From positions 310,001 through 374,000 of the forward strand of contig CM022672.1 of NCBI GenBank assembly GCA_012295275.1: a stretch of DNA of 64,000 nt. Reading direction: 5' to 3'. The stretch comes from Chrysomallon squamiferum (taxonomy: Eukaryota; Animalia; Mollusca). How positions within the stretch are numbered: the stretch's first letter is position 1; the number at the start of each line of letters is the position of its first letter. Below the pieces are notes generated by a model. That model was given only the letters and a program-made list of their open reading frames with translations. It was not told the DNA's origin and made no database searches. Positions 8,263 to 54,997 of this stretch are shown here, one piece after another. Both the position numbers and the translations under genes were made by a program.

Positions 8263-11087
8263 TCAATTCATTTCACCACATCTCAGTACATATTCTTTGC
8301 CTTGAATGTTGGGAAAGTGATCTCGTTTTGACATCTGTTTGAGAGTGCTGGCCAGCTGGTCATGTAGGAATGGGTCAAAATCAGGCGAGCCTGACTTACT
8401 TGAAGACTCTGAATCATTCTTACAAAACTTGAAGTTGTTTCTGATGAGGAATGAACGAACATTATTGGACAGATGCAGTGGAGCCTCTACTGGAGAAATA
8501 ACATCCTGATCGTATTTGCGCTTTGTGAGCACATCACAGATAATCTTTGGTTTGAACACAACTGGACGTTCACTGACACTTGGATCTCTCGCCAGCTCCT
8601 TCTCAAGCAGGTCATTGGGAAGGTCAGGTTTGCGCAGCTTCTTCAACACCATGGATTTAGAGTCTTCCAAATCAGACAAAGTGATCACCTGCTCAAACTT
8701 GCCAGTGAAGTACTTTGGAGCAAATTTAAGTTTTGGCATCATGGTATATTCATCTCGAGGATACAGATCTTTAAGAATTGGTACATACTCCTTCTCATTC
8801 AGCTTAGAGTACTTGATCCATGGGTTGGGATGAGAGACCTCAGATGATTTCAATGATGATTTTGCTGGTGTCATTTTGCTTTCTTTTTCTTTTGACCTGC
8901 TCGTATCTTCTCTGTCGGATTCATGCTGCATGTCATCTAACAAATCACTGGAGGTGAGTTCTCTCCTTGAAGAAGGAGTTGTACTTTTTTCTCTCATCTC
9001 TGTGCTAACTTTTGAAATATATTCAGATGCAATGCTGTTTGCCTTATAAATGCCCTGCTGGTCATCAGCTCTCAGGTGTAGTCCTGTTGGTTTCACCTCT
9101 AGTTTTCTGTCTTTTACAAACTGCTGGAAGGCTTTCTCTGTCTGTGCTTCACGTATTGCTTGAAATTCTTCATCATTCTCTATCTCCTGCAGAACTTGCT
9201 GCATCTTCAGTTTCTTCAGCTGCAGAAGTTCTTTAGCTACATGTTCCTTGTCCTGATGCCAAATCTCTGCTGCTAAGATTCTGTATACAATTATTCAAAC
9301 AATGTTAGAAATTTTACAATGATCATACTTCAAAATTCATCAAATAACAAACTGAAAGCAGATTTCCATTTCTATCATAAATTACTTGAAATATAAAACC
9401 ACAACAATACTTACCTAGCACATTTTCTATGTCCCCACAGTTTGGCCAGATCTAAAGGTGTGTTACCTCTGCAATCTTTGGCTTGGACATTGGCTCCATT
9501 TTCAATCAGCAGCTTCAGACACTGTACATGTCCTTCACTGGCAGCCTGGTGAGCGGGTGTGATGCCATCTTCATTACACCTGTGTTATAAACAAATATTA
9601 ATATCTCTAAATTAACAAACATTATATCTTTAAAAAAAAAAAAATTATTACCAAAATAACAAAATTACTAAAACAACAAACATTAATACTCAAATAAAAT
9701 ACTACTTAACTAATTATTGCTCAAATTATAAAATATTATTACTCAAATAACAACAAACATTATTATGGTAACAACTAAAATAATTAACATTATTTCTCAA
9801 ATAACAAACATTACTACTCCAGTAACAAACAATATTATAAAATTACAAGCATTACTCCTAAAATAACAAAAAATGCTCAAATAACAAACATTACTACTGA
9901 AATATAATTGATCTCTAATAAAATGAAATATCAGTCTTACTTGATATTCAAAACTACATTAACATTCTTACATGGATAGATCAGGATGTTTTTCTAGTAA
10001 GTAAGTCAAACACTGCAGTGCTCTCTTTCCTGTTTGGTTACTAATCACAAGATGGATAGCTCGCCAACCAGTCGAACTTGGAAGATTCACATCCATCTTG
10101 AACTTTTCAATGCAAACCTTCAGACAGTCTAACCTACCATGGATAGCTGAAAGATGGAGTGCTGTCAGGCCCTACAAACAAACATATAACAAAACTGAGA
10201 CAGAGTTCTGTCAGACTTACAAATAAAAATATAACAATGCTGTCACATCTTACAAACAAAAAATATAACAAAGCTGAAATAGAGTACTGTCAGACTCTAC
10301 CAGCAAAAATATAACAAAGTTGAAACAGAGTGCTTTTAGACCCTATGAACAAAAATTTAACTAAGCTGAAACAGTGCTGTCAAATGCTACATAATAAAAT
10401 ATAACAAAGCTGTAATATAGTTCTATCGCACCATACAAATACAAATAAAGCTGAAATATTAATGTTGTATTATATAACACTGTCAGACCATTAAACAAAA
10501 CTATAACAAAGCTATAATACAATACACTCGAACCACTGCAAAACCAAATATAAGTGCTGAAATATTAATGTTGTCAAATCCTAGGAACAAACAAAAATTA
10601 ATACGAAACTTAAATATGAATGTTGTCAGGCCGATTAACAAAAAACGAAACAAAACTTAAATTTAATAATTAATTGAGATATTTGTTTGCTGACAAACAA
10701 CAAGAAAATACTGAAGTTTTCTCAACTTATACACACGAAGATACACTATAAAATAAAATGAATTATTATCACATTTTAAAGCCTGCAGTCACATAGAAAT
10801 GTATGTTGTATAAATAAAATTAATAGTTTAACAACTAATACGTTCATTACATTTTTGTCATAATTCAATTTTCCTCCTGCATCTCGTAGACTTTGTTTCA
10901 ACCATTCAACATCTCCGATTGCTGCTGCCATGAATTCATCGTCTGAAAGTTTTTTGTCGCTCGAAGTTCTCACGGGACTACGTCTCAGTCGCAGAGTTTT
11001 GCTTGTTTTCGTTACACTTGAACCTGATCCTTTACCTAACGGAATTTCGCTTAAAGTTCTGGATGTTCCAGAATCTTCGAAAGACAT
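8263..11087 (-). CDS. ANKRD53: Ankyrin repeat domain-containing protein 53-like (~539 aa, 4 coding exons)
   Basis: Exons 11087-10851 (ATG), 10171-9972, 9579-9415 and 9280-8263 (stop), all GT-AG with compatible phases. Ankyrin repeats: FMAAAIGDVEWL, GLTALHLSAIHGRLDCLK, GWRAIHLVI, GITPAHQAASEGHVQCLKLLIENGAN, GNTPLDLAKLWGHRKCARILAAEIW, followed by a coiled coil. It lies tail-to-tail with TEX261, as ANKRD53 does in vertebrates. Confidence 0.85.
9590..9905. repeat. Degenerate ~21-bp tandem repeat (AAATAACAAACATTACTACTC) filling ANKRD53 intron 2
   Basis: Visible repeated motif; a related short tract occurs at about 15200-15300 in ENO4 intron 5. Confidence 0.7.
10157..10660. repeat. ~46-bp tandem repeat spanning the ANKRD53 intron 1/exon 2 acceptor
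   Basis: Units resemble GAGTGCTGTCAGGCCCTACAAACAAACATATAACAAAACTGA. The first unit contains 15 nt of exon 2 plus the acceptor; about 10 progressively degenerate copies extend into the intron. Confidence 0.8.
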
Positions 11088-11450
11088 TATATGAAAAACT
11101 CTGGTATAGTTTTAGTATATTTTATTTTATTTTTTATTTGAAATACAAGTCTTAAAACAACGTCATTTAATAACAAACTTTCTTTTCTGGTCGGTTGCTC
11201 CCAAACCAAAAAGAAAGCGTGTCGTGGCTTTCGATTGTCGTAAAATATTTGCAGCAATGTAACTTAATGTTACTATTACAGATTACGGGTTTTATGGATA
11301 TTTAAATATTTTATTTTATTGATTTATTTATTAATAATAACTTTAGTTCTTATTTTGATCGTCAGAATGGTAGAATGAAAACTTGATAGCAATCCCATAA
11401 TTCTATATCCTTGACGACCACAAAGATGGATTCCAGGAGCGAAACATTTT
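11088..11450. promoter_or_regulatory. Putative bidirectional promoter shared by ANKRD53 (-) and ENO4 (+)
   Basis: The start codons are head-to-head, about 840 bp apart (11087 and 11931). CpGs are locally retained (about 10880-11450) in otherwise CpG-poor DNA. The ENO4 ATG follows an acceptor AG at 11923-11924, implying an upstream non-coding exon here. Confidence 0.6.
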
Positions 11451-11930
11451 TGTTTTTAAATTAGTGAATATCAGATTAATGTTCTGCTTGTGGGTAACAT
11501 TTTTATTTCTATGCTTATTAAATAGTACATGTCCACATATTATATTGTCTCAGAATCTGCAGAAACAGAATTCATAACAGAAAGTTTTGTACTAATATGT
11601 GCTTTATATTTAATACTACATTTGCGACAAAATACTTTTTTCAAATATGAAATAAGAATGAAATGACAACAAATATTTAAAAACTTTGCAGTTATTAACA
11701 GTAGTTAACAGACATTTCATTAACATTTTTTCGGTAATATTTTTAATAATTCATTTTAGAATAATGTTTAGATTTTAATTAAAACGTTTTATGTATATAT
11801 TCATAAGGAAATTGTCTTTCCATTTATATATGTGTGTGTGTGTGTGTGTACACACATTTAGCAATATTTTTCATTTAAAAAAAAAATGTTTTTACTAATT
11901 ATGTAACTCTAACAAATATTTCAGAAAAAA

Positions 11931-14900
11931 ATGTCAAACAATTCTGTTGGTTTAACTACAAATATGTATGAATTGAGACAGAGAGCTGAAGAATACTACA
12001 AAGAAAATGGAGTTCCAGAAAAAATGGAAGATCTCCTTAATACAATGTTTATTGACCAGCCACCTGATGTCTATGGTCACATAGTAAGATTTTAATTTAC
12101 AATTCAAAGACTGCATTCAGGTACTGGCTAGGAAAATGATGGCGTGTACAAACAATACATTTTCTCTGATCCATCACTAACACTCAACTTCTGTTCTAAG
12201 TTAGAATAATGTTATTTTGGTATTATGTATTATCACAATCATAGTTTTAAAAACTGGGTGTATCTTTTAATATTTCTCTTTTTTTAAATTCTAAAGTTCT
12301 ATTTTCAATTGTTGTTTTATTTAAAAACATGTCTAAATTTATATTTCACTTCTTTTCTAATTATATCAATTTATGAAAATTAATTTTATTTTATTTTTTT
12401 ATAAATTTTAGTCTGAATTCTTCAGAGACTTTGCAAGAGACCCATACATAACAAAGGTTTGTGACAAAAAAACAAAAACAAAAAAATAAGAATAAAACAG
12501 GACAGTCAAACTTTGATAATTCAGACTTGAAGGCATCAGTCAAGCAGTTAAAGTTAAAATTAAAATATCTGCTGCAGTTGTGTTGGACTAGTATGTTTGA
12601 TTTTCATGATGTGAGAAACATAAACTGTTACATATTTTGTAAAACTAAGTAAATAACAAAATCAATAAGACACACACAACACTCACATGCATGCAGATAC
12701 AAATATATTTATTGATAAATAAAAAAGCAGAAACAAACCATACATACATATAAATTCTTCATACATCAGTGGAAACAAATCAGTTGAAATACATAATCAG
12801 AAATAAGCATCAAATTCATACATTTTCAGATTTCCAAACTTTGAGGAACATAACACAACACAATTCCATTAATTAACATTTAAACAGCAAATGGTATGTT
12901 TGACACAATGCACTCATTTGTAAGCAAAAAAATATACTAGTCAGTGAACTTTAACAGTTTACTACGACGGTTCTCTGAAGATTGTCTGCAATTATGTATT
13001 ATGTAAAGACGCTGTATGCAGACTTAACTGAGGCAGTTATATTGTGTTGCACTTAATCAACAAATTCCTGGGATCATAAAAGATTTTCAACTTATAATTT
13101 TCAAATTATTATTGCTAGCATAAGAAGGAACTTGGCCTAGACAAGACTGTCAGTTTGAGAGATCAAAGTTTTGAATTTTCAAAGTTTTACTGTCTTTAAT
13201 GAAGTAATTATCAAAACAATAGATTTCTTCACAATATAAATTAAGATAATTTTTGTGGATCAGTATCTCAGTTCTTTTTTTGATGTGGCAACATTGTTTT
13301 TAATATGGTTTTATTTTATCTGTAGATATATTCATAAAGCAATCAAAGTGAGTTTAATGTGCCAGTATAATAATTTTTGTATAACTTCAAAATTTTGTAA
13401 TTTATTATATTCTGTATTGTAATTTATTTTATTCTATATTGTAATTTATTATATTCTACTTTAAGACATTTTTTCTTCTTTTTTTCTCTCATTTTATTAG
13501 CTGAAATGCAGAAAGGCTTATGACAGCAATGGCCACCAAACAACACAAACAGAGGTTCACTGTATGGTGAGAAATAAGGAGAAGGTAAACAAATGTAAAT
13601 TCGGACTGTATTATTGTTCATTTTACACACATCAGTTCCAGTGTTTGTGTCTGAGGTTTTAGTTAAAAAGTTTATTTTAGTTATCTAACAAGATTGTGTT
13701 AATCTGTGCATGCTTTGTTTCAGACTAAGTACTAGTATTGTATGTTAAACAACAGCATTCAGCTGATCACTCATTAGTTTGTAGCATGATGTCTGGTTTA
13801 ATAAAATAATAATCACAAACTTGATAAATACTGGATGCATTTTAATTTCTACAATTTTTTAATTAATTGTGTATGTTAAATAATTTGTAAAGTATTGTAT
13901 ATTAATTATATATTTTTGTTAATTTAAAAGCTAATTTGTAAACTATTTTGCATTACTGTGTGAAGTATTTTGTTTATTTGTGTGTTTTAATTACTGTGTG
14001 ATGTATTGTGTTTATTTGGGTGTTTTAATTACAGTGTGAAGTAATTATGTTTATTTATTAGTGAAATATTGTGTTTATTTGTGTATTTTAATTAATGAAA
14101 TATTGTGTTATTTGTGTGTTTTAATTACTATGTGAAGTATTGTGTTTATTATGATTTAATTGCTCTGTTGTGTTTTTCAGCTAATCTGCACGTGTCTCAG
14201 TTCAGGTTATATGTACAGTGTTGCTGAAACTTCTAGAGCTGAGGAGAAAGAAGCAGAGGAGATGGAGCAGTGTGAGTCAGTGAGAACAGCAATTGAACTT
14301 ATCAACACAGAAATCTGTCAAAGCCTGCAAGAGCAAGATCCCTCAGCACAGGACCTCATAGATTCCATATCATAGTCAGTAGACTGATTACATCTTTAAA
14401 CCAGTGTTCTATTTCTACACTGTACACACATTAATATTGAATCTCTAGACCTATAGACTCACTAACATTATATTTCTATACCTGTGTATTCATTAATATT
14501 AAATCTGTATACTGTACACTCATTAATATTATATCTCTACACCTGTTCATTAATTAATATTATATCTCTACACCTATTCATCAGTTAATATTATATCTCT
14601 ACACCTGTTCGTCAATTAATGTTATATTTCTATACCTGTTCATCAATTAATATTATATCTCTACATCTGTACATAAATAATATACATCTTTACACATGTA
14701 CATTAATATAACTTTTCTGCACCTGTACATCAGTTAATAATACCTACCTCTATATCATCATCAGTATTACACCTCTGCATCTGTAAGTAGACATGTGCTA
14801 CCTATAGTGAAATATACTATTGTGTCATTACAGTAAGTATTATAATGGTGTTAAAAATATGATCTTGTGTTACAGTGATTTACTTGTCAAACTGAAGGAG

Positions 14901-15677
14901 ATGAAAGAAGTGTCACAGTTTCTTGACAAAGAAAATGTCCCTGATGATGATGAAACAAATGAAAAATTACCAGACAATCCAAGTCCAGGAAAACAGAAAA
15001 GAAATGCCACTCCCAAGTTAGTGTGCCTCGTAATTATCAACTGAAATCTTAGAACCAGTTCAAGTCTACCTGTAGTTATACTAACAAAATTTATTCTCAG
15101 ATAATTTATATATATTCAGCTTATTGTCTAACTTGATTTATTTAAAAACATGCCTTTAAGAGTACTAATACTCAGCCTAAATGATATCTTTATTGAGAAT
15201 AAATAAATATCATTACTAAAAAATCATACTACTCCAGTAACGAGCATTATTACCCAAATAACAAACATTACTACTCAAATTACAGATATTATTTATTAGT
15301 CAAGAAATATTAATCATTTAATATGTTCTTGAAAATTAATGGTGATATATTTGTTATATGATGTGTGAGAGGGGAAACTCACATTACTATATTAAATGAT
15401 TTTTCTTGTTAATTGTGGATATTTAGTTTACTTCTTTAAATGGGAGAGTATATATGTAAATCAGTAATAGGGGCACTGGCTAGAACTGGATACTGAGTAC
15501 TACTGAACCTGTGAACCATAATGCTTCACAATGAGCTAAAACATGTTTTTACAATACTAATGATTATTTAGTCAGTTTCTAAAAATAATCGCTGCATTAA
15601 ATTTACAAAAGAAAATTACCAGAAATTATTGGACAGCCTAAACATGTTGGTCATGTAATGGACAGCCTAAACACATG

Positions 15678-15727
<50 letters not shown>

Positions 15728-18700
15728 GTAATGATTTTTTCCACCATCTGAAATATGAATTAATGAAAAGTGTATATGAAATATCTGAACCCATGCCAAA
15801 TAATTGATTTGTATTAATACCAGTTTATTTTACAGTACAGTAATTTCCAGAATAAACTTTATTTTCCATCTGTAAATCAAAACTAAGAATTATATAAATA
15901 AAATCAAACACACACTGTAACATTACACTAGAATCTTGATTTTATTTGTGCATTTTCCCTTCTGTGACCTTAACTCATTTTCTTAATCTGTTAAACTCTT
16001 TTCACAGTTATTTTATTTTCATTCAAATCAAAACTGATTACAACCTTCCCAGTCCGCAGCTGCCCAGTTTATTTGTAGAATTTTACTTTCACAGGTCTCA
16101 ATGCTAAATACAAAAAAAAAAAAAAAAAAAGAAAGATTCCTTTTAGGATTCAGATTTAGAATTCAGAATTGTATGTTAGCATTCAAAATCACAAGCTAGT
16201 GTTGAGAATAGTGAATGGATGTTTATTAACACATGAATCAGTCAGAAACACTGAGAGTAAAAAAAAAAAACTGTACTGTTTATATCAGACTGGTATTCTA
16301 CATCTTCCTCTGTTCCACTGAAAACTAAGAAAATTGAAAACCAATATAACTTCAGTGTTACTGTCCTTCTAAATCATTTAACATGAATAACAATTCAGCT
16401 TTTGTCTGTTCTGCTCTAGAAATCAGAAACTTTAATATTTCTAATTTATATAAATGGATTAGATATATTAAAGGATTAAAGTTTCCCTGTTTATCAAAAA
16501 AGATTATTTTGTGACAAGATTTTTGTTACTGTTGTAGGAAGTTGTTTGTTTTTGAAAGGTGAGGTCATTACACTATGGGGGAAATGCACAGATATTAAAA
16601 AGAACAACAAAAAACCCCAAACAACATCATGTTGTGTTTTCTTCACTCAGATAACATCGTTATTGCAGGTGTCATTGCTGTTCAGGTTTGGCAGACTCCA
16701 GTTCTGACATCATCTCAGTGTGAGTGAGCTGACATTTTGGCCTGTATGTGAGAATATGTTAACGGGAAAACTCTAAGTTTAGAAACATTACTTCAGTAAT
16801 ATTTTTTGAGAAACACAGCAATGTGTAAAATGGTACTGAAAGTGCATTTCCTCTCCATTTCCCTCACCTACCAAAAACAGCACCATGGGGAAATTGTAAA
16901 AAACACACCTCACTCATCACAACACAGAGAACAGATAAAGTCAAAGATTTAAATGATTAATGTTCCACTCCTGAAAAAGAACAGACATGTAAAATAGTAG
17001 ATTAATAATACACTGTACTAATAATTATTATTAAACAGGATCCTTTTCTTAATATGTAGGCCTAAAACTAATTTCGGGATAATATTGTTAAGCAGGAAAT
17101 ACTTTCCCTCTGTGGTTTGAAACTAAACTATTCCATAACTTTGACATTTTTTCAAGCTTACTAATAATAACAACAAATAGCACTGAAAAAAAACCTATAT
17201 CATTAATGCTATCATCTCATATTTTGTTTTCATTTTGAGTATTTCACATAAAAATACAACAACAATTCAAATGTTATTTTTTACCTTCAGAGGTAAAGGC
17301 AAGATGCCCCAGGCAATCATCATCCCTAATGAACCCCAAGAGAAGTTGGTGTCAGGAAGTTCATCTGTGTCAGCTGTGTCCCGAGCCGTCTGTACAGCTG
17401 CTGCTCTAATTAAACACATACCTATTTATGAATACATCGCATCTCTCATGCACTCTGAAGTATTTACCTTAATTCTCTTTATATTTTATTTATGAATACA
17501 TTGCATCTTATTAATTCTGAAATGTGTTATTAATTAACTATTCTCTATAAATTTGAAGAGTGTGTGTATGTGTATAATACAGTAAATATGAAATATAGAG
17601 TATATATTTACTTTGTTACAGGTTCCGGATAAGTTCTGTTTACCACAGTTGCTGGTAACTATTCTTCAAAATGGAAAATTTGCTCCTGGCAAACTGAACT
17701 GTGTCAAAGAATTCATAGTAATCCCAGTGCCAGGCATGAGAATACATGAGGTTGGTACCAATTGTTTGTCTAACAACACTCTTCTTTCAACCTAGATATA
17801 TATTTTTTTTCTTGTTGTAAATGTAGAGGGTAATAAGTATAGAAACCAGTTTAAGTTAGCAGTACTGAAAGTGATGTAATCCTGCATACAAATTATTTCT
17901 GTTTTTGCTAGATGTATAACAACAACTCTTTCAAAAACAATTAAAATAAATTGTATAACTGGCAGAACAATATCTTCCTAGATTTAATTAAAGGTTTAAT
18001 TAGGATCATGAAATAACCAGTTTGAATTGAGATGTTCTTAATCTTTTCTTTACAGGCCATTGATAAAATTCTTCAGATCTACCACCAGGTCGCAAAGATG
18101 TTGGTTTCAAAAGGAGGTGTACGTTTATCTTTGACAACTTAGTTAACACTAACTAAATAAACAAATTAACACCTTAATTCATTAATCCATTAACCTGACT
18201 ACACTAACCAAAGTTAAGAAACAATGGAAATAATTATAAATAATAAAAAATACAATTTAGAATAACATTTATTTTAACTTTAAAGCACATTTTGTTTTTA
18301 TAGACAAAGATTTTACACTCTGTTGAACAAATATCTTTTATATCAAAACTGTATTCATAAGAACCCTTTTAACCTAACATGTATAACAGTATAAATGCAA
18401 AACAACATGATCAGAGACTGTTGTAAACAAACTACAATATGTTTCAATACACTGACTAGTCCAGATCACCTAGTGAAACAGGCAGGAGATAATTTTCATC
18501 CTGCTGGTTACTAGTTACAATTTTCTGATTTTATGCTGTAAGCATGAAGGGATGGTAACATTTTTGCAAATTAAGCAATGAAAATTGTATGCTTAATGTT
18601 AACAGTTATTAAACATGGATCTTTTCTAATATTATAATCTGAACAACTTTATCTACCATAAGCACCTTGCAGCAGTCAGAAAAGTATGTACCAAAGATTT

Positions 18701-21700
18701 GATAAACTAAATACCTTTCTCTGTGTTACCATTAGTTGTCAGTCTTCTGTCAATGTTTGACATAAATTTATTAATGTCATAGTTTCTGCTAACAATCAAC
18801 TATAGAACTGCTGTTTGTAGAACAGTATGATAAAATATCCTTGACAAACCCTGAAATTTATTAAATTTACCAGTATTTCATCTGCTTGTCTCTCTGTCAG
18901 TCTGTCCATCTGTCTATTTAGATGAATCACTGTTCTGTAATATTTAATTAGCATAACCCATTTTAGTATTATCAAAAATCTGTTTATGATATTTTTATGA
19001 TTTATAATTTTATTATCCACGCAGTGTTTTATTTCAAAATATTGTTTTATGAATACAACTTTTTTTACAACACATTGTTATCATTATACCTTTTACTTAT
19101 AAAACCTTATTTTATCTTTAACAATTTTATTTATATCAGTTTCATCATTATTATTTATAGCACATTGTTTTATCATTAATCATATATAAACAGCTTTATT
19201 ATTAACAATTTATTTATAGCAGATCTTTTACCATTAAAATTTTATTGCACTTTCTTTTTTTCAGAGTAAAAAGGGGCCAGTTGATTATGTAATTGTTCCA
19301 TTGATTTTTCTTTAAAAAGCTTTTTACTATTGTATTGCATGTTTTCTAGACACTTTTAACTTTTAGCACCAACATCAATTAGTATTTTTGAATTACTGCT
19401 TTGTTCATGCTGAGTGTTTTGAATTACATCCTGATCTGTAATAAGCAAATATAAAACTGTATTAATAACAACAGTAGACAGTTTTAGTGAGAGTTAAATA
19501 TTTCAGAGTCCTTCGTACTGCAAAAGATAAAAATTATTTTTTATATGTAGTTGAGCGTTTATGTTTAGTGTTTTAGTGATTTTTTATTGTTGTTCTTCTT
19601 CATGTTGTTATTTTTCCCTTTTCATGTTTATTTTAACTTTCTTTCTCTTATTGTTGTTGTTTTTATTGTTATTATTTTTATTATTATTTTTTGTTTAGAT
19701 AACTGTTGGTGATGTTTTACATTATTTCATTTATATTTTACTACTAATATTCATCATGTTTTGCAGTATGACAAATTAAATCCAGTATTCTTTTCATAAA
19801 ATTATGCATAACCAAATTTTGTAGTTATAAGTAAATTTAGAACAAATGTAAAGTAAGTGTTGTTACATAGTATTAAAATGGGAAATTTGATAAAAGGGTA
19901 TTTCATTCAAAATTAAAAGTAAATAATACTGTTCTTGTTGAATGTACCTACAGGTTTAGATCAGAGGAAAAACAGTAATTAATATGCATAACTTTGATTT
20001 ATATAAAAAATGATACAAATAATTAAGTGCTATACAGAATATTATATATATCTGATATATATCTTACTGTAAAACATGTTATTGTTACAAATATCTGACA
20101 GTAATCTTACTGTAAAACATGATATTGTTACAAATTTTTGAAAGTAATCTTATTGTAAAACATGATATTGTTACAAATATCTAACAGTAATTTTACTATC
20201 GAAACTTGTTATTGTTACATATATCTAAAAGTAATCTTAGTATCAAAAAATGTTATTGTTACAATATTTAAAAGTAATCTTACTGTAAAAACATTACTGT
20301 TACAAATATCTAAAAGTAATGTTACTGTAGAAACATGATATTGTTACATATATCTGAAAGTAATGTTACTGTATAAACATGTTATTGTTAGATATATCAG
20401 AAAGTAATCTTACTATAGATTCATGTTATTGTTAATGGTATCTGAAGGTTATGTTTACTATAGAAACATGTTATTGTTACAGACAACTGCAAAGAATGTT
20501 ACAGAGATTGGAGCTCTATGTCCGAGTCTGGATAAACCAGAACAGGGAATTGACATGTTGATAGATGCTATGACAGCCTTGGACTTGAAACCTGGTGAAG
20601 ATTTCAACATTGGACTCAAAGTAGCAGGCCACGAAATGTTTGATTTGGTTAGTCTCTCCCACTCATCCTCATACTACCATTCAGATCCATCCTCAGTAGT
20701 AACCAAAATGCATAATAACACTACCGTTCAGTTTGATGCTTAGCAATAGCTGCATGATACTACCATACAAATCCAGTCCCAGTAGTAGTCAAGATGTAAC
20801 TATAACTAGAGTTATCTATCTTGATTCTCAACTGTACTAGAGAAGCGGTCAAACATGCTCAGGTTTTTTTTTTTATATATTAAATGTTATTGCAGCAATG
20901 GAAAAAATATAATCATGGTTCGATTTTTTACAAATAGTGTTATGAAATATTATTATAAAATATATATTTATATAGCAAAAATGTAGCTTTTATCTCTGAA
21001 GTGATTGGTATACTTAAAGTCAGCTATTTTGTACAAATGTATCTCAGTTATTTACTGAAAAGGGAAAAAGAAACTTGTGCTGAATGTAGAGAATGATCAA
21101 AGTAAGATTTTAAAACATGTTTTTTCAGGATAAAGGAAAGTATGAAGTGATGACAGGTCAGTTCAAATCTCCTGAAGACTTGGTTGATTTCTGGGTTGAG
21201 TTGTTAGGAAGATACCCATCCATTAATGTTCTCATTGACCCCATGAGGAAAGAGGTAATTTTGCTTATCACAAACATACAAATGATCATATTATTGTTTT
21301 CTCTATAGAATTCTCCTTCCGTCTGATCATTCTTATTTAATGTTTTTCATAACTGTGTATTTTTTTCTAAAGGATCGAGTGAACTGGTTAAGGCTCTGTG
21401 ATAAACTGACAGATCGTTGTTACATGATTGGTGAGTATGGTTACCACCGACCAGGACTGTTGATAAATGAAAATCTGGAGGAGGTGTACAGGGAATACAA
21501 AACAAACGCCATCATCCTGCGTCTTGAGCAGATGAACACCATCACACAGATCATCAAAGTGATAAACAAAATGAAAGGTGGGTAATCAAAATTGTAGACA
21601 AAATGAAAAGTTGGTATTCAAAACTGTAAACTAAATCAAAGGTTCGTAAATGGGTTTTTTAGTGGATAATTTACTACTAAAACAAAAGTTTTTTTTTTTT

Positions 21701-23002
21701 TTTTCAGAAGCTGATAATGAGATTGTCATTGCAACTTGTCATGGAGAAACAACAGAGAGTTTTATTTCTGATTTTGTAAGTCATTAATTAGTTTTAAATA
21801 GGTTTTAAATGTGGATACGTTAATTTTAATGCATACAAACAACACATGGAGATTTTAAGTTTCATTTATAACACAGTGTTTTATCATTTGGTGATCTTCA
21901 AAGTTTTGATAACAGATTTTACTACTTGGATGTTTTTATTGTTTTAAAATTTGTTTTGTATTTTCAAGCTGTCAAGTTTTATTTTACTTATACTGTACCT
22001 TTATAGATAAAAATAGTCTAATTACATTCTGTGTTCTTACAAGATGTCTTTTAATGCTACACTTTGCTGTTATCAGTAATAACGAAATATACCAACAAAT
22101 ATACTATAAATTTAAAAATATCTGTGCTGCCATTTTTCTGTAGTCAAGATCTCTGAGGGCTGACAATTTTGCTTTGGAATTTAAAATCAGTATCAGACAA
22201 AAATGTATTTTTCAGTCAACCATGAATGTGATGATGTTACAAATCTAGTTGTAATGAAAGCATGCAGTTGTTATATAACAGTATTATTTTTTATTAGTGG
22301 AACAGTAAAATGTGAAAGTGTTAAGAATTTTATTAGATCATTTAATCATGTTAATAAATATACCATTTTCTGTTACTTTTTAATGTCTCATTATTATAAA
22401 TACATATTTAAATGTCTTTTTAATAAATTATTCCTTCATCTTCATGAAAAGGAATGTTTCAGTTTTCTAGTAAAGCAATATTTTTTAAATTTACTTGTGA
22501 TTGGCATTTCAAAACATTTTGTGATTCACATATTGATACATATTTAATTTCATTCACATTTAACATTTATTTCGATTAATAATTTAATTAATTTCATTCA
22601 CATTTAAAATACATATTTTATTTCATTCACATTTTAAAAAATATTTAATTTGATTCATATTTTAATATGTATTTGTTTCATATTTTAATACATTTATTTT
22701 GAATTGTAATTTAATTTGATTCATATTTGTAATACATATTTAATTTGATTTACATTTTGACGTATATACAGGCTGTGGGTTTAGGTGTGAAGTTTTTGAA
22801 AGTTGGGGCCCCAGGTCGAGGAGAGAGAATCTCCAAACTGAACAGACTGTTACAGATTGAAGATGAGCTGGAAGACAAATCAAAGTTAACTTTCCACACA
22901 GAATATGTCTATAACCACATCGAGATGCCTCCTAGTCCAGAACCAGAAGAAACTCGTGAAAATTCCCCATCAAATTTAAAGAAAGATGCAAAGAAGAAGT
23001 GA
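11931..23002 (+). CDS. ENO4: Enolase 4 (enolase-like protein ENO4, ~590 aa, 13 coding exons)
   Basis: Exons 11931-12083, 12412-12456, 13501-13584, 14181-14374, 14876-15016, 17291-17459, 17622-17750, 18056-18118, 20483-20647, 21129-21254, 21373-21577, 21708-21775, 22772-23002 (TGA); all GT-AG, phases consistent. N-terminus YELRQRAEEYYKENGVPEKMEDLLNTMFIDQPPDVYGH is typical of ENO4. Enolase-fold motifs include GKLNCVKEF, YPSI..LIDP and AVGLGVKFLKVGAPGRGERISKLNRLLQIEDEL. It lies tail-to-tail with SHTN1, as in vertebrates. Confidence 0.95.
12503..13192. mobile_element. Decayed non-autonomous TIR element (MITE-like, Tc1/mariner-pogo-type CAGT terminus) in ENO4 intron 2
   Basis: Left end CAGTCAAACTTTGATAATTC (12503) and right end GAATTTTCAAAGTTTTACTG (13173-13192) are inverted complements at 18/20 positions. 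No ORF; a TA target duplication is not preserved. Confidence 0.55.
13940..14180. repeat. Degenerate ~38-bp tandem repeat ending at the ENO4 exon 4 acceptor
   Basis: Repeated TTAATTACTGTGTGAAGTATTGTGTTTATTTGTGTGTT-like units run into the polypyrimidine tract and AG at 14179-14180. Confidence 0.7.
14405..14785. repeat. ~32-bp tandem repeat (TAATATTATATCTCTACACCTGTTCATCAAT) filling ENO4 intron 4
   Basis: About 11 visible copies starting about 30 nt after the exon 4 donor. Confidence 0.85.
20048..20510. repeat. 43-bp tandem repeat spanning the ENO4 intron 8/exon 9 acceptor
   Basis: Unit CATGTTATTGTTACAAATATCTGACAGTAATCTTACTGTAAAA, about 10 copies. The last copy supplies the acceptor (TTGTTACAG, AG at 20481-20482) and still aligns with the first ~22 nt of the exon. 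Confidence 0.9.
22520..22762. repeat. Degenerate AT-rich tandem repeat (ATTTAATTTCATTCACATTT) ending at the last ENO4 acceptor
   Basis: About 8 visible copies directly upstream of the AG at 22770-22771. Confidence 0.65.
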
Positions 23003-25556
23003 TTGAATTCACAAATGACATGTTTTAGTGACCATAAAAGATTATCTTGAGAATTTTATTTACAAGGAAAGTGGAAGAGTTTCGGCCAAATGTTTACATT
23101 CAAAATATCAGAAAAATATAACATATTAACAAAAGTAATAATTTATTATTATCTGAAGATTAATTAAAATATTTTATTTACAAACTTGGAATGTGATAAA
23201 TTTAAAGTAACTGTACTTACAAAATAGGTTGAGAGTCCATTTATAGACTTCACACAAAAGTTGTTTTAGGGTTGGGTTTTTTATTTGTTTTTTATTATGT
23301 TAAATTAAATTTTACTTGCAAAACTGAAGACGTAAACTGTTATTTACTAGACAGGACTAAAGTGAATGAAATTAAAAAATATATATATTAACTAGTAAAA
23401 CACTCTCGGTTTAAGTATTTTCAATAAAAAATTATTATCTTTTTTTTCTTTTTTTTTGTGAAATTAAGAGAAAACAAATGTTTGGCGATCTAGTATTAAA
23501 CATGCTTAATGATAACTCTCTCTTTAAGCTTTCACCATACTTGTTGACCAAGTGTCATTCTTTTAATAAACATTATTTTCTTTTTATTTGTTACAAGGTT
23601 ATTTTTTTTATAAAATGTAAACATTTATGATATTCTGTGATTGCTTTTTTTACCTAAAGTGTTCATCTTATTGTAAATTCAAAATAAATTATTTCATGTT
23701 CTCAGATGTTTTGCATCGAAATGTGTTTTTTGCAGCAGATCAGAGGACTTTAATAGATTGCAGTTCGATTTTCTTTCATTCTGATGTTTCAAATTAACTA
23801 CAGCTCAACATATTTTAATATCAAGATAGTAGGTCTCAATAGTATTGTCTAATGGCAGAAAACCTGTCAATCTTTGTGCTTCTCTCTAAAGTTAAAAACA
23901 AGATGTATTGTTTCAGAATAGCATGCACCATGATCAGACAAATGCTTCACTTAGAAGTGAAATGACTGTGTTCACTGAGGTGGACTGATCCTACTATATC
24001 TAACCACATAGTCTGTTTTTGTTTGATACTAAACACAGTAATTTTGAAGAATTCACTAACTATAAACTTTGCATAGATCCTTTTTAACATCATATCTACT
24101 TAGCCCTATTGTTTATTTTCTTTTGTGTACAATTCCATAATTTGCTCTATGGAATGATAATCATCAAAAGCTGTATTTTCTTAACACTGAAAAATGCACA
24201 AGACAACAAACAGTTTGTAGAAAACAGAAATCCAAGCAGTAATTATATACTGGAATGAAAATCTGTGTGCTTACATTTGGTTTCTGAAAATAAAAATGTT
24301 TGCTGTGAAGAACAGACTTGCAAGAAAACAGAAAACTGACATTATCACCATGCATTTTCTGGTTATACATTCATAAGTGATGTAAATGTGACAATATGTA
24401 GTAGCATACACAACTTAAACAATAAAGATTAAATTAAAAACAATAAATGCTTCTTTAAAAATTTTATTGGCCATTTTCATGAAGATTACACAAACAGAAA
24501 GAAGCCAAATTTAACATACAGAGATTCCATAACACATTGCAGCTGTTTTAATATTGCATGTAAATGTAAAAGATAAATATGTATTTAAAACGTGTAATAA
24601 TATAAAGTCCAAATTTTAAAATAAAAACTAATAAACAGGACTGAACAAAAACTGTTTATTTTATAATCTTCAAATTTCTCTGAACCTCCAGCATAAATAT
24701 TCTAATCATGCAGTTTCAATAACAAAACCAAAATAAACAATGTTTTATAATATTAAAAAAAAATTTAATACATTTTTCTTAAAAATCATTAAGTATACAA
24801 ATAAATATTCATGCAAAAAATAAAATGCTGACAAGCTAATATTAATTATCTAATTCTGTAAATAAATTTTCTATTTTAAGTTTTCACAACCTGGCAGTAT
24901 ATTTATCATGGTGTATTCCTGTATATTTTATTTAGTTTTAATCAAATGACTATTTTTAAGATACAAAGTAAGAAAATTATTAAATTATAACTGCTAGACT
25001 GAGATTAAAAGCAGTTTAATGAAAACAAACAAAACACAAACCTGATATTAAACAAATAACAACACACAAATGTTCTAGAAAAATAAAACATCAAAATGTA
25101 TGTTTGCTATAAACTATCTTATAAATGATAAACTTGATCATCATTGTCATCAAAATAATCCTGATCATATACATGTTCCTTACTTGATAAACAACTAAAC
25201 ACCAGTGTGACAACATTGTCTACATACATGTGCATCCATCCATTTCTCCAATACTTCTACAAAAACAAATACATTTTAACCATCACCTACACAGCAAAAC
25301 TAAAAACATTTTATTAACAAACTAAAAAGTGTATTTTCATTATTTCCTGAGAAAACCATTTAAAAAAACTAGTGTTTTTTTTAAAATCTCATGACAAACT
25401 GGTTAGACTTTGTATGAGAAAATGATGTATTTAAAAAGTGAAATCAGTGTGATTGTAGCATAATGAGAACCTAATGTTTGTAACTAGTGTTTTTATAACA
25501 TTGAAAATATGATGCGTAACTTTGTTTGTAACTTGAGAAATTTCTGCTTACTGTTT

Positions 25557-28500
25557 TCACTGTGAATCATCTGGTGGTTCCTCCTGTACAGCAGACAGTA
25601 TTTTTAAACGAGGTTTTGCAACAGGACATGACTTTGATGTGAAAACTGAAAAATCAATTCAAAACAGAAACAATGTATAACAAACTGCAGTCAGTAACAA
25701 TAATAACTGATCTCTTTTGTTTTTTTAAATGTGAAAGCAGTTGTAAAGTATGCAAATAATGTCAAAAGTATTTTATTTCTTGTTTTTTTTGTAAATTATA
25801 TATAATTTATTTATCTAAAATTATTTTTATTTATTATTTTTCTGAATCTTTATGAGTAATTCTGGTATCTTAGCAAGTCTTACCAGTATCATCATCTTTG
25901 ATGCTGACATTGCTGTTGCTGCTGCCATCTCCATCACCGCGAATTTTTCTGAACGCTGCCGTCAACTCTGATGATTCATGCTCTTTTTCAATAGGAGCCA
26001 GAAGATCTGGATCACTTCTTGTTCGCTTCATTTTGTTCTGAATGAATGAATGAATGAATGAATGAATTATTGAACCTCTAGATAAAGATAACAGAAGAGG
26101 AGAGATCTACCTTTATGACACTAGTTGTTCATTCTGAATTAGCAGCAATGTACTGTTTCAATCCACCTTCCCATAGATAGGGAAAGACTAATTATGATTA
26201 CACACAGGACACTGACTGCAGTCAGATGCAGAGTTTGTCACTAACCAAAGATGAGAACTTGTGTGTGAAAAACAAACGACAGGATGTGAACTAGAACAGT
26301 AAATGTTACACAACTGTGACATACAAATATTTAAAAACAAAAAGCAATTCTGCTTTCTCTTGGTGAAGTAACAAATAAAAGTCTGTGTTGTACCAGAATG
26401 GTGTGAAGTTCCTCCATAGCGCCACATTCTTTACTCTGGTCACTTTTCTGAAAATAAACATAACTATTTTATACTGTTTGACTATAATAATAATAGTATG
26501 TTACGAATATATATTTATTGCTTGTCATATAAATATTTTTATAATTATACCAATCTATATTAAAAAAAAAAATGTATATATTTTATACATAAATTGAAGA
26601 TATCAATTTGTTTTGACATTAAATAAACTAACACAAATTAGTATGTGAAAAATGAGATCAACATTACAAATGTCTAAATGAAACACATACATTAACTTGT
26701 GTCGGGCGGAGCACTTTTGTCAGTGGTTTCCCCTCCTTGATTCTCTTCATCATTTCCTCAAGGGCCTTCGAGTATCCTTCACTGACCTGAGCTCCTCCAA
26801 CTGCCACTGCAAACACAGAAAAAAAAATACAGAGTATGTATTACTAAAACAAAACGTATTCAAAGCTTCACATTTTCAATTTTTTAAATACTAAAGACAT
26901 CTCTATTTTCAAACCACTAGAGAAATTAATATATATTTTCTGGTTTTAAACACAGAACAAGTTGACTGACTATAAAGAATAATGTCTAAAATATATTTAA
27001 CAAAACACTGTTGTTTTGTGCTACATTAATCTCTGCATATTTCACTTACATGTTTTTTTCACAATTTCTGTTTTTTTCTTCTTCTTCTGAAATCTACCTA
27101 GAATTCTGAAATGTATAAAATAAATAAACTGTCATTAAAAAAATCAGTTAAATCACATTCAAGCTAATGCTGCAACTGTCAGAGTCATTCAGCAACAGTT
27201 TTCAACACTTACCCTATGTTACGCAGACCAGACGACAGAGGGGGAGGTGGTGGTGGTGGTGGTGGTGGTGGAGGTTTGATTGCATCTTCATACTTTCTTT
27301 GAACATCAGCACCTGAAAAATTTCAACTCTTTAAATCAACATGTTAAACATTTTCTCTGTACAATGCAATCATCAACATATTTTTATCACCGACATTATA
27401 ATTTTAATTATGAATGTGATACTACCAGGAAAACAGTTATCTTCAACTTCTAACTTGTGAATCATATATTATTAAACACTTAACATATCAATATGCTACA
27501 CTATATTATTGAGATGTTACACCATATTATCAATATGCAACATTATATTTATGTTATTATATTAAGTATTATCTAATTATCAACATGTCTCATTATCAGA
27601 GTGTAATATTATATTGTAAACATGTGAGGCTAATGTAAAGATCAAGTAACACCAGTGTTAGTGCTGTATTACATCTAATTATACATAACTACAAACCATA
27701 ACAAGAACTAAAACAAAACACTAAAATTAATATAAACTTGTAGATACACCAAACTAAAATTATATCCCTATAAAAAAATCAACCAACATTTTGTAAAATA
27801 AAAAATGAAATGTGGGAAAACTGTGTCTGTAGTGACTGGTACAATGTTCTGTATTTACACTGTGTAGTGACTGGCACTGTGTGCTGTATTTATACTGTGT
27901 CTGTAATGACTGGCACTGTGTGCTGTATTTACACTGTGTCTGTAGTGACTGGCACTGTGTGTTGTATTTACACTGTGTCTGTAGTGACTGGCACTGTGTG
28001 CTGTATTTACACTGTGTCTGTAGTGACTGGCACTGTGTGCTGTATTTACACTGTGTCTGTAGTGACTGGCACTGTGTGCTGTATTTACACTGTGTCTGTA
28101 GTGACTGGCACTGTGTGCTGTATTTACACTGTGTCTGTAGTGACTGGCACTGTGTGCTGTATTTACACTGTCTATAGTGACTGGCACTGTGTGTTGTATT
28201 TACACTGTGTCTGTAATGACTGGCACTGTGTGTTGTATTTACACTGTGTCTGTAATGACTGGCACTGTGTGTTGTATTTATACTGTCTATAGTGACTGGC
28301 ACTGTGTGTTGTATTTACACTGTGTCTATAGTGACTGGCACTGTGTGTTGTATTTACACTGTGTCTGTAATGACTGGCACTGTGTGTTGTATTTACACTG
28401 TCTGTAATGACTGGCACTGTGTGTTGTATTTATACTGTCTATAGTGACTGGCACTGTGTGTTGTATTTATACTGTCTATAGTGACTGGCACTGTGTGTTG

Positions 28501-37094: not shown

Positions 37095-37125
<31 letters not shown>

Positions 37126-37450
37126 TTAATTTTTTATAAATCAATACTTGTAATTCTTTTTATCTTTTATTTTACAAAATCACAACAGACGTACAGTTAG
37201 GGTTATACAGTGTTCTGCAGTCAGTTGTTACATTTTATTCTGCACTGTAGCGTGACTGTCAACTGAACCGTGCAGTTATAACCTTATATAAATTATAACC
37301 ATAAATTACATTTATTCAACTAGATCTCGTTACCAAGTTTAAAAAACAATAATTAGGCTGCCACTAACCTTTGTAACAGTGACCAGACAACGTTTTAAGA
37401 GTTTTCTCCAAAAGCAAACACTTGTCTTTCCAGTTTACTTCGTCTGACAT
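25557..37450 (-). CDS. SHTN1: Shootin-1 (KIAA1598; coiled-coil, polyproline, actin clutch protein), ~536 aa, 16 coding exons
   Basis: Exons (minus strand) 37450-37369 (ATG), 34623-34571, 34404-34344, 33032-32938, 32235-32082, 30886-30789, 30188-30107, 29752-29658, 29334-29188, 28799-28625, 27312-27213, 27105-27050, 26806-26691, 26447-26394, 26037-25884, 25645-25557 (TGA); all GT-AG and phase-consistent. Motifs VSEAAFKEYEALKSEYELEAECRNKAENFASK, IKRQSSVLLQSVSSDTRLMKAL, a poly-P tract, ALEEMMKRIKEG..LRP and AMEELHTIL parallel vertebrate Shootin-1 as I recall it. Confidence 0.93.
27820..28651. repeat. 39-bp minisatellite (~21 copies) beginning inside SHTN1 exon 10 and repeating its donor site
   Basis: Unit on + strand GTAGTGACTGGCACTGTGTGTTGTACTTACACTGTGTCT; on the coding strand it reads QCQSLQTQCKYNT. 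A few units are shortened. It explains the stack of spurious ORFs at 27760-28861. Confidence 0.97.
29745..29845. repeat. Three ~33-bp copies spanning the SHTN1 exon 8 acceptor
   Basis: CTCAGACACTGAAATAAAACTTTATTTAACACCAT / CTCACTCTGATATCACAACTTTATTAACATCAT / CTCACACTGATATTAAAACTTTATTAT; each copy retains CTG (a minus-strand CAG acceptor). Confidence 0.75.
30190..30425. repeat. ~21-bp tandem repeat (AAAACACAATGTAAAGCAGTA) abutting the SHTN1 exon 7 acceptor
   Basis: About 10 visible copies; explains the spurious ORFs at 30008-30571. Confidence 0.85.
33085..33490. repeat. 41-43-bp minisatellite (GTAACAGATGAGTTGATTCAGCAAATCAAACAGTATAGACAGT), ~9-10 copies, near the SHTN1 exon 4 acceptor
   Basis: Directly visible tandem array ending about 50 nt from the acceptor at 33033-33034. 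Confidence 0.92.
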
Positions 37451-37479
37451 CTTTCCTACCTTGCACAGGTCTGCTGTCT

Positions 37480-37640
37480 GACACAACAGTGCGGTGAATA
37501 GGAGGAAACAATGGAAATGAACGTGTCATTATTTTACTTCCTGCTTGTTGACCAATCAGCGCCACGTAGATATTTCGAGCTTATCTCCCTTACATTGTAA
37601 ACTTGCGATAGGAAGTTTATTAATAACCGCTGAATAAACC
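37480..37640 (-). promoter_or_regulatory. Putative SHTN1 promoter
   Basis: Immediately upstream of the ATG (37450), with CpGs retained. It clusters an ETS-like ACTTCCTG (37536-37543), a CCAAT box (37552-37556) and GCCACGT (37561-37567). Confidence 0.55.
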
Positions 37641-38869: not shown

Positions 38870-38877
38870 CTGATTAA

Positions 38878-39210
38878 TTATGATAGTGGATTTTAACTGT
38901 ATAACCGTAGGTTTTAACTGTATGATAGTGGATTTTAACCGTATAACCGTAGATTTTAACTGTATGATAGTGGATTTTAAACCTTATAATCGTAGGTTTT
39001 AACTGTATGTTAGTGGATTTAAACTGAATAATCGAATATTTTAATTATACAACCACTATGATTTTGACTGTAAAACCGATTATTTCAACTGTTGTTGTTA
39101 GCTGTTTAACCGAGGTTTTTAACTGAATACTCGAGTATTTTAACTGAGTAATCGATGATTTTAACTATATAATCGTGGATGTTAATTATGTAACTAACCG
39201 TGGATTTCAA
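38878..39210. repeat. ~21-bp tandem repeat (GGATTTTAACTGTATAACCGT), with a 42-bp higher-order pattern at its left end
   Basis: Visible array directly after a (GT)n microsatellite; it decays rightwards. Confidence 0.85.
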
Positions 39211-42719: not shown

Positions 42720-42770
42720 CTGCGTCTTCTTGTTGTAATACCTGGCTCTAAGAGATGGTGTTCGCGACTG

Positions 42771-44146: not shown

Positions 44147-44210
44147 CTTTGAATCTGAAGAGACTTGTTTGATGAACTGCTTAAAAATAACGTTTGACTT
44201 GTAATGCTAA

Positions 44211-44258
<48 letters not shown>

Positions 44259-47176: not shown

Positions 47177-47208
<32 letters not shown>

Positions 47209-48847: not shown

Positions 48848-48878
<31 letters not shown>

Positions 48879-51811: not shown

Positions 51812-52385
51812 TTATGTCTGGTTGAAGGAGAGTGGATGCAACTCAGTGTAGACTGATAAGTGTTATGTCTGGTTCGAGGAGAGTGGATGCAACTCAGTGT
51901 AGACTGACAAGTGTTATGTCTGGTTCAAGGAGAGTGGATGCAAATCAGTGTAGACTGATAAGTGTTATGTCTGAAGGAGAGTGGATGCAACTAGGTGTAG
52001 ACTGATCAGTGTTATGTCTGGTTGAAAGAGTGGATGCAACTAGGTCTAGACTGATAAGTGTTATGTCTGGTTGAAAGAGTGGATGCAACTCGGTGTAGAC
52101 TGAAAAGTGTTATATCTGGATGAAAGAGTGGATGTAACTCAGTGTAGACTGATAAGTGTTATATCTGGTTGAAAGAGTGGATGTAACTCAGTGTAGACTG
52201 AAAAGTGTTATATCTGGATGAAAGAGTGGATGTAACTCAGTGTAGACTGATAAGTGTTATATCTGGTTGAAAGAGTGGATGTAACTCAGTGTAGACTGAT
52301 AAGTGTTATGTCTGGATGAAAGAGTGGATGTAACTCAGTGTAGACTGATAAGTGTTATCTGGTTGAAGGAGAGTGGATGCAACTT
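51812..52385. repeat. 49-51-bp minisatellite (TTATGTCTGGTTGAAGGAGAGTGGATGCAACTCAGTGTAGACTGATAAGTG), ~11.5 copies
   Basis: Directly visible, highly homogeneous array with no unique spacers. Confidence 0.95.
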
Positions 52386-52527
52386 CGTGATAGGTGCCAA
52401 AACAAGAATAACTTGACATATTTTATGAAATTTTTATACCAAATATGATAAAAGTATGCTGAAAGCCAAATTGGAAAATTAATTTCTTACCAAGAATCTG
52501 AATGTAAGATTTGTATGAATATCACAG

Positions 52528-52558
<31 letters not shown>

Positions 52559-54609: not shown

Positions 54610-54737
54610 ATTTCAGTTTAATCTATAGTTTGATTTATTATAATTATATATATATTTCTTTCAGGTGTGTAGTATAATTTGATATATATAATTATGTATA
54701 TATTTAATTCACATGTGTAGTATAGTTTGATATATTG

Positions 54738-54774
<37 letters not shown>

Positions 54775-54997
54775 TTATTTTAGATGTGAAGTATACATTT
54801 GATATATTATAATTATATACATATTTCAGATGTGTAGTATATGCTGATGTATTATAATTATCTTTATTTCAGATGTATAGTATAGTTTGATATATTATAA
54901 TTATGTATATATATATCTATATGTTTATTTCAGATGTGGAATATATTTTGATATATTATATTTATTTATTTATTTCAGATGTGTAGTATAGTTTGAT
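54610..54997. repeat. Tandem repeat of the acceptor region TTTCAG|ATGTGTAGTATAGTTTGAT with (TA)n linkers, ~8 copies
   Basis: Copies near 54613, 54660, 54708, 54780, 54824, 54867, 54928 and 54973; the last copy is the exon boundary. Confidence 0.85.

What the first reader, a model, noticed from the sequence alone, without database searches (positions are those of the whole stretch)
10157..54997. Tandem repeats recurrently anchored on splice junctions across four genes
Seen in sequence: in at least 7 places the repeat unit includes the exon edge plus the splice dinucleotide and is amplified into the intron. These are the ANKRD53 exon 2 acceptor (10157-10660), ENO4 exon 6 donor (17426-17530), ENO4 exon 9 acceptor (20048-20510), ENO4 exon 11 donor (21564-21650), SHTN1 exon 10 donor (27820-28651), SHTN1 exon 8 acceptor (29745-29845) and the 54979 exon acceptor (54610-54997). 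Other arrays abut or lie close to a junction (13940-14180, 14405-14785, 22520-22762, 30190-30425, 33085-33490). The units are mutually unrelated (21-46 bp), so this is not one mobile family; each arose locally. Inference: a lineage-specific process may seed minisatellites at exon-intron borders (for example repair or slippage tied to splice sites, nucleosome edges or methylation boundaries), or selection may retain such arrays. Either would expand introns and create decoy or alternative splice sites. I do not know of this being described as a system, but cannot check the literature.
Basis: partly seen in the sequence, partly recalled or inferred. Interest (0 to 1): 0.8.

Follow-up and report, generated by a model that had tools for sequence, protein, structure and literature searches.

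The report
Splice-junction "mirage" minisatellites in a snail
In this stretch of a snail genome, six or seven exon edges have been copied head-to-tail, splice signal included, into the neighbouring intron; the RNA at hand uses only the original splice site, so these are likely tolerated by-products of a repeat type already known from lancelets, humans and chickens, though repeats here sit near exon edges about twice as often as chance predicts.

Summary
The window is AT-rich gastropod DNA (best hits Gigantopelta aegis). Six of the seven claimed arrays copy a splice junction that RNA or homology supports. One of them (ENO4 17422-17530) has only two copies, and one (29745) includes only 3-9 exon bases. 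The seventh array (54610-54997) is real, but its acceptor position is unverified. RNA contigs of two runs (one study) use the exon-proximal site at all five junctions shown, including SHTN1 exon 10, where two identical in-frame donors follow. Copies derive from the exon. Splice dinucleotides are not systematically purged. Strict junction-spanning is about twice chance and borderline (p 0.008-0.36 by definition); the lean of arrays towards exon edges is firmer (p 0.004 and 0.0008). Such repeats are published as amphioxus "mirages", human F7/CBS VNTRs and chicken "exon stuttering". This scan found the same on other DNA (brachiopod, urchin, annelid, and another piece of this genome). Likely mechanism: local duplication, filtered by selection and retained longer near splice sites. 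No genome was held for a genome-wide test.

The parts
10157..10667 (-). Acceptor-spanning array, ankyrin gene (ANKRD53-like) exon 2; unit ~46 bp = 31 intron + 15 exon; 9 degenerate copies, 4 keep AG, the two nearest do not
   Evidence: (RNA joint 10171)
17422..17530 (+). Two-copy duplication (period ~64) of the last 37 bases of ENO4 exon 7 plus the donor 17459|17460; copy lacks GT in register
20042..20507 (+).
   Evidence: junction by homology
21553..21649 (+).
   Evidence: junction by homology
27820..28651 (-). Donor-spanning array, SHTN1-like exon 10, donor 28625|28624; 39-bp unit, 21 donor-like sites (3 GTAAGT, 13 GTAAAT, 5 ATAAAT); sites at 28586 and 28547 are in frame and would add 13 or 26 residues
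29011..29189 (-).
29745..29843 (-). Acceptor-spanning array, SHTN1 exon 8, acceptor 29753|29752; 33-bp unit, 3-9 exon bases; both copies keep AG; the nearer copy would bring a stop
54610..54997 (+). Array of ~45-bp units with embedded (TA)n at the edge of an orphan exon (54979 or later, to 55129); acceptor position unverified
9585..9929 (-). Array ending 5 bp from the ankyrin-gene exon 3 acceptor; no exon sequence; unit shared with 15217-15355
13842..14175 (+). Array ending 5-30 bp before the ENO4 exon 5 acceptor (14181); no exon sequence
14407..14785 (+). 31-bp array starting 32 bp after the ENO4 exon 5 donor (14374); marginal match to the exon end
19027..19249 (+). Very degenerate array ending 15 bp before a predicted 24-nt ENO4 micro-exon (19265-19288)
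22506..22757 (+). Array ending 14 bp before the last ENO4 acceptor (22772); no exon sequence
30192..30441 (-). 21-bp array ending 3-24 bp from the SHTN1 exon 7 acceptor (30188); no exon sequence; small indels in run X4
33086..33489 (-). 43-bp array 53 bp from the SHTN1 exon 4 acceptor (33032); not junction-spanning; differs between individuals
8266..11201 (-).
11400..23002 (+). Host gene 2: ENO4, 15 exons modelled (start of the 5' UTR exon approximate)
25200..37490 (-).

Best explanation
These are 'mirage'-type minisatellites: short local tandem duplications that copy an exon edge with its splice site into the adjoining intron, likely born by slippage or gap repair in a repeat-prone AT-rich genome and likely tolerated because the exon-proximal site stays in use. 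Shown: units hold exon-derived sequence, each array is local, and RNA contigs use the original site. Inferred: a duplication across a junction leaves one intact exon edge and puts the extra copy in the intron, whereas wholly exonic ones are removed by selection; unequal exchange or slippage then amplifies the intronic copies. Inferred and untested: the roughly twofold excess near edges arises mainly because deletions that would erase an array are constrained next to a splice site and the exon keeps an intact template, so no dedicated seeding process is needed.
For: Exon is the source: ENO4 exon edges match G. aegis ENO4 while the intronic copies decay. Both long donor units end just past the donor motif and align to the exon end; the SHTN1 unit equals the last ~45 exon bases plus the donor with a 9-base deletion, joined through a shared AGT. 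RNA of X8 and X9 uses the proximal site at 5 of 5 array junctions shown (10171, 17459, 28625, 29188, 29752). Arrays fill 4909 of 22761 intron bases in 37 introns of median 392 bp, so many must lie near exons: 2.6 of 18 are expected to span a junction, 5-7 do. Splice dinucleotides survive about as other columns do (acceptors 12 of 28 kept, 16.0 expected; donors 18 of 27, 20.0 expected), as expected of tolerated copies. Papers report the same anatomy with normal splicing (PMC3087553 passages; PMC3902484 passages) and selection of the most upstream donor in human F7 (PMC1557585 abstract and introduction).
Against: Short introns alone do not explain the position: arrays lean to the edges against placement in their own introns (p 0.004 and 0.0008, 11 of 15 within 15 bp against 5.0 expected). 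The retention step is untested, and biased birth fits equally. RNA is contigs from one study, which drop rare forms. ENO4 exon 11 copies all lack AG (0 of 9, 4.8 expected), and the two nearest ankyrin-gene copies lack it, which could mark selection against decoy acceptors, though one early mutation explains the first case.
Confidence: 0.6

Rival explanations
1. Duplications are born preferentially at exon-intron borders, through repair, stalling or chromatin boundaries there, and most often on the acceptor side.
For: Edge lean holds under both TRF settings. With the permissive setting 11 of 15 arrays end within 15 bp of an exon, 8 of them at acceptors. Real junctions carry an array edge at 6 of 77 against 80 of 2320 intronic GT/AG sites (p=0.05).
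Against: Strict overlap is not significant with default TRF (3 of 13; p 0.36 and 0.12) and ranges p 0.015-0.24 over four probe shapes. Permissive TRF can run T-rich units into polypyrimidine tracts. One window only. The same anatomy occurs in GC-rich chicken chromosomes and human genes, so it is not lineage-specific.
Confidence: 0.25
2. Pure chance: minisatellites are dense and introns short, so some arrays touch junctions; the excess is a selection of cases and a boundary-calling effect.
For: 15% of intronic GT/AG sites (359 of 2320) have a nearby copy. Overlap counts are not significant against the own-intron null. The curated list of 18 was assembled after looking.
Against: The position test rejects uniform placement with uncurated TRF lists; 9 of 13 default arrays lie within 60 bp (p 0.03 and 0.004).
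Confidence: 0.1
3. The arrays are kept for function: spare splice sites tune isoforms, above all the two in-frame donors behind SHTN1 exon 10 that would lengthen the coiled coil by 13 or 26 residues.
For: The only three GTAAGT donors of 21 are the three nearest the exon, 39 bp apart, in frame and without a stop. Human 6-16 and CBS do use nearby pseudo-sites (PMC1557585 introduction).
Against: Both RNA contigs (depth 90 and 16) join 28625 to exon 11, and no other join was shown. Alternative sites of the 32-, 44- and 46-bp units would shift the frame (unit lengths), and the 33-bp one brings a stop. Proximal copies may simply be the most exon-like ones.
Confidence: 0.05

Closest known systems
Amphioxus 'mirage' minisatellites (Adh3, globins BflGb6 and BflGb9, troponin C, PGBD5); PMC3087553 and PMC3902484, passages read; the 2002 Adh3 paper was not held and is known only through these
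   Same: Unit spans an exon-intron boundary at donors or acceptors; many but not all copies keep AG/GT; unrelated units; Adh3 units 10-72 bp; normal splicing; edge unit least homogenised.
   Different: Host is a gastropod; 6-7 cases in 74-77 junctions of one window; allelic and somatic length instability not shown here.
Human junction-spanning VNTRs: F7 intron 7 (37 bp), CBS intron 13, 6-16 intron 2, lamin B2, PDGF intron 4; PMC1557585, abstract and introduction read
   Same: First monomer spans the donor; identical pseudo-sites follow; most upstream donor used. The SHTN1 exon 10 array is a close match.
   Different: Human cases are scattered single loci and donors; here acceptors are as frequent, and the SHTN1 unit is in frame and almost wholly exon-derived.
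Chicken 'exon stuttering' on dot chromosomes; bioRxiv 10.1101/2025.09.16.676548, abstract, passages and discussion read
   Same: Local expansions between exons, exon-edge fragments copied into the proximal intron (over 90% of sources within 1 base of the border), alongside purely intronic arrays.
   Different: There GC-rich, spans 112-23,555 bp, 3.4% of dot introns, strongly length-polymorphic; here about 28% GC, spans 100-830 bp, 6-7 of 37 introns, little length change seen.
Internal tandem repeats that modify human gene structure; PMC2812944, listing and outline only
   Same: Minisatellite expansion at exon-intron structure.
   Different: Concerns paralogs in segmental duplications; no change of gene structure was seen here.

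Membership tests
Mirage minisatellites | Tandem repeat unit spans an exon-intron boundary | tested here: met
   6 of 77 junctions, 5 of 74 with an exon-weighted probe; four of these junctions in RNA, two by homology, one unverified
Mirage minisatellites | Copies duplicate the splice signal (many, not all) | tested here: met
   12 of 28 acceptor copies keep AG, 18 of 27 donor copies keep GT
Mirage minisatellites | Minisatellite-sized, mutually unrelated units | tested here: met
   Units 32-64 bp; no cross-match among the spanning arrays above shuffled level
Mirage minisatellites | Authentic site used, no aberrant mRNA | tested here: met
   5 of 5 array junctions shown in RNA contigs of two runs, one study; rare forms would be dropped; 20483, 21577 and 54979 not seen in RNA
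Mirage minisatellites | Allelic length instability | tested here: inconclusive
   X2 contigs span the arrays at 20042, 29011 and 29745 without gaps and 10157 with 2 gaps in 2.2 kb; a 22-base unit is missing at 13408 and small indels occur at 30260-30276 and 33120-33126 in non-spanning arrays; the 830-bp array was not spanned
Mirage minisatellites | Somatic instability | not testable with these tools
   Needs single-molecule data from tissues of one animal
Chicken exon stuttering | Exon-edge copies in the proximal intron, local origin | tested here: met
   Proximal against distal intron screen
Chicken exon stuttering | GC-rich dot-chromosome setting | tested here: not met
   GC 0.24-0.36 per 2 kb
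Mobile element or dispersed satellite family | Shared unit or ends among copies | tested here: not met
   Only 9585/15217 share a unit; neither spans a junction

The most novel reading that the evidence does not exclude
In this snail, tandem duplication is seeded two to three times more often at splice junctions, chiefly acceptors, by a process tied to exon borders, and it occasionally yields usable in-frame splice ladders such as the three identical donors of SHTN1 exon 10, which would let the coiled coil grow in 13-residue steps. The genome would then be a good system for asking how exon borders mutate and slide.
Probability: 0.2. Interest if true: 0.55.

Novelty: new member of a known kind. 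Interest (0 to 1): 0.25.

Why it matters
It extends mirage minisatellites to a gastropod, at high local density, with RNA support that splicing ignores the copies. No mollusc report came up in my searches (listings only for 23, 51, 52; open-access library only). The mechanism is stated to be unclear in amphioxus (PMC3087553) and speculative in chicken, so a genome-wide birth-versus-retention test in such a genome would be useful. In practice these arrays mislead gene annotation. As it stands it is a further example, not a new system.

Tried and rejected
No whole genome was held, so no genome-wide test. Two scans of metagenome contigs for orthologous loci (ENO4; nanos) found none, so orthologous introns were not compared. 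Run X10 (another organism) gave only short low-complexity pieces. The first TRF calibration was trained on blocks that included the arrays and overstated chance; it was replaced (0.37 chance arrays per 64 kb at score 130, against 22 observed). The (30,4) probe overlapped its own exon-side control and was discarded. One search used a wrong SHTN1 exon 5 donor (32004); RNA gave 32082 and searches use that. The orphan 54979 exon: no hit among 1.84 billion representatives, no Pfam match, atlas lead SSDP family at 0.76, below the trust level; one unconvincing downstream candidate exon. The name SHTN1 could not be confirmed: one unnamed 92-aa hit at 83%, generic coiled-coil atlas hits, no Pfam match. 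Match of the 54610 unit to 58740-58770 (E 5e-4) lies within the shuffled range. A collapsed 69-base array contig at depth 130 in RNA run X8 and an intron 10 contig at depth 6.5 are compatible with unspliced RNA or DNA carry-over and were not taken as intron retention. Systematic purging of decoy AG/GT was tested and not found. Assembly artefact rejected: contigs of another haplotype run through five arrays. The 2002 Adh3 paper is not held. No supplements were opened.
Full report
Setting. The window is AT-rich animal DNA (GC 0.24-0.36 per 2 kb). The single-exon nanos gene at 43475-44146 is 62% identical over 98% of its length to Gigantopelta aegis nanos, the best of 46 hits, and the last ENO4 exon hits only G. 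aegis enolase 4. The organism is therefore a gastropod near G. aegis (inference). I modelled an Erv26-family gene (TEX261-like, name recalled; Pfam), an ankyrin gene, ENO4 and a coiled-coil gene; all give open spliced frames. There are 37 introns with both ends known, 22761 bases, median 392.

Junctions. RNA contigs of runs X8 and X9 (one study) were laid on 9300-27800 (15 of 64 joint rows shown) and 28500-33600. They place the ankyrin exon 2 acceptor at 10171, ENO4 junctions at 13584/14181, 14374/14876, 15016/17291 and 17459/17622, and SHTN1 exons 4-10. The exon 10 contigs end at 28623, two bases past 28625 through shared letters, and continue with exon 11 sequence, so the donor nearest the exon is used. 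The ENO4 junctions at 20483 and 21577 rest on homology. The exon at 54979 is unverified: all three frames hit a stop within 18 bases.

Are the copies real? A 26-base probe across each junction finds a copy in its own intron at 6 of 77 junctions, at or above the maximum of 2888 cross-pair scores. An exon-weighted probe gives 5 of 74, adding 17459 and leaving 29752 at p=0.016 (the orphan exon was left out there). Per-copy alignments give units of 46 (15 exon bases), ~64 (37), 44 (24), 32 (25), 39 (27 or more), 33 (3-9) and ~45 (19, if 54979 is right). Exon edges agree with G. aegis ENO4 while copies decay, so the exon is the source. The SHTN1 unit aligns to the last ~45 exon bases plus the donor with a 9-base deletion. 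Of the five 'abutting' arrays, four contain no exon sequence and one a marginal match. Contigs of run X2, which differ by SNPs from the window, cross the arrays at 10157, 14407, 20042, 29011 and 29745, so these are not assembly artefacts; X2 is listed as possibly DNA but shows spliced ENO4 joints, so its nature is uncertain.

More than chance? It depends on the definition, and I give all that I ran. Default TRF, 13 intronic arrays: overlap 3 (own-intron null 2.1, p 0.36; seed null 1.2, p 0.12); within 15 bp 4 (p 0.38, 0.11); within 30 bp 6 (p 0.16, 0.03); within 60 bp 9 (p 0.03, 0.004). Permissive TRF at score 130 or more, 15 arrays (chance rate 0.37 per window): overlap 5 (p 0.21, 0.04); within 15 bp 11 (5.0 expected, p 0.0004; 2.9 expected, p 2.5e-6); thresholds 80 and 100 gave the same pattern. 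Pseudo-junctions: 6 of 77 real sites against 80 of 2320 intronic GT/AG sites carry an array edge, 2.3-fold, p 0.05; three other probe shapes gave 4-7 of 77, p 0.015-0.24. Curated list of 18 arrays (post hoc): 5, 6 or 7 spanning against 2.6 expected, p 0.10, 0.03, 0.008. Position within the intron: mean shorter-flank fraction 0.145 (13 arrays) and 0.134 (15 arrays) against 0.25, p 0.004 and 0.0008. So arrays lean to exon edges, and strict spanning is about twofold and borderline. Caveats: one window, picked because a reader noticed the pattern; permissive TRF may extend T-rich units into polypyrimidine tracts; one intron holds two arrays.

Effect on splicing. All 5 array junctions shown in RNA use the exon-proximal site. 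Splice dinucleotides in copies are kept about as often as other columns: acceptors 12 of 28 (16.0 expected), donors 18 of 27 (20.0 expected); ENO4 exon 11 is the exception, 0 of 9. Copies within an array are not independent. SHTN1 exon 10 has 21 donor-like sites; the three nearest are identical GTAAGT, in frame and stop-free, and from the fifth onward the frame shifts or stops. No use of sites two or three was shown, but contigs drop rare forms.

Mechanism. Shown: local origin, exon as source, proximal site used. From published work: the most upstream of identical donors is selected in human F7 (PMC1557585), and amphioxus mirages do not disturb splicing (PMC3087553; PMC3902484). Inferred: birth by slippage or gap repair, survival only when extra copies fall in the intron, amplification by unequal exchange, and longer retention beside splice sites, where deletions are constrained. 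Biased birth at exon borders remains a live rival (0.25) that this window cannot separate.

Known kinds. The anatomy meets the tested defining features of amphioxus mirages; length instability is inconclusive. It resembles chicken exon stuttering without its GC-rich setting. I had reached the mirage reading before looking at earlier notes. One search listed 8 of 10 matching notes on other genomes, mostly with the same reading, and gave the chicken lead; one search listed one related array elsewhere in this genome. These are unchecked AI notes and are not counted as support.

Verdict. Observation partly confirmed, interpretation partly supported, new member of a known kind, interest 0.25.

Noticed in passing
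window 192-44146: Gene order TEX261-like, ankyrin gene, ENO4, SHTN1-like, nanos. From memory, human TEX261/ANKRD53 (2p13) and ENO4/SHTN1/NANOS1 (10q25-26) form two linked groups, so this may be an ancient syntenic block. G. aegis nanos and ENO4 list the same longest contig length.
   Followed up: partly
window 11201-11489: The ankyrin gene and ENO4 start head to head within about 200 bases; ENO4 has a non-coding first exon with donor at 11489 seen in RNA.
   Followed up: partly
window 9585-9929 and 15217-15355: Two arrays in different genes share a ~21-bp unit (E 1e-9): a small dispersed satellite family.
   Followed up: partly
window 19265-19288 and 13326-13347: A predicted 24-nt in-frame ENO4 micro-exon that matches a segment of G. 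aegis ENO4 in position, and a 22-nt AG/GT-flanked candidate that would shift the frame; neither seen in RNA.
   Followed up: partly
window 26038-26067: A (TTCA)7 microsatellite runs straight into the SHTN1 exon 15 acceptor.
   Followed up: no
window 50330-50600: A coding-like fragment with an internal stop that resembles, from memory, a PC-esterase (PCED1/FAM113) C-terminal part; Pfam gave nothing relevant. Possibly a pseudogene piece.
   Followed up: partly
window 54996-55129: Orphan Pro/Gly/Met-rich 45-codon exon; weak atlas lead to the SSDP (SSBP2-like) family, score 0.76.
   Followed up: partly
window 55900-56340: A higher-GC stretch that looks like a fragment of an interspersed repeat.
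   Followed up: no
window 5361-6127, 38874-39210, 49704-50052, 51801-52393, 61098-61682: Large minisatellites (units 21-49 bp) outside modelled introns, with no junction known nearby; they show that arrays arise without exon edges.
   Followed up: partly
window 32004-32082: An open in-frame 78-base extension to a second GT donor lies behind the RNA-used SHTN1 exon 5 donor; not seen used.
   Followed up: partly
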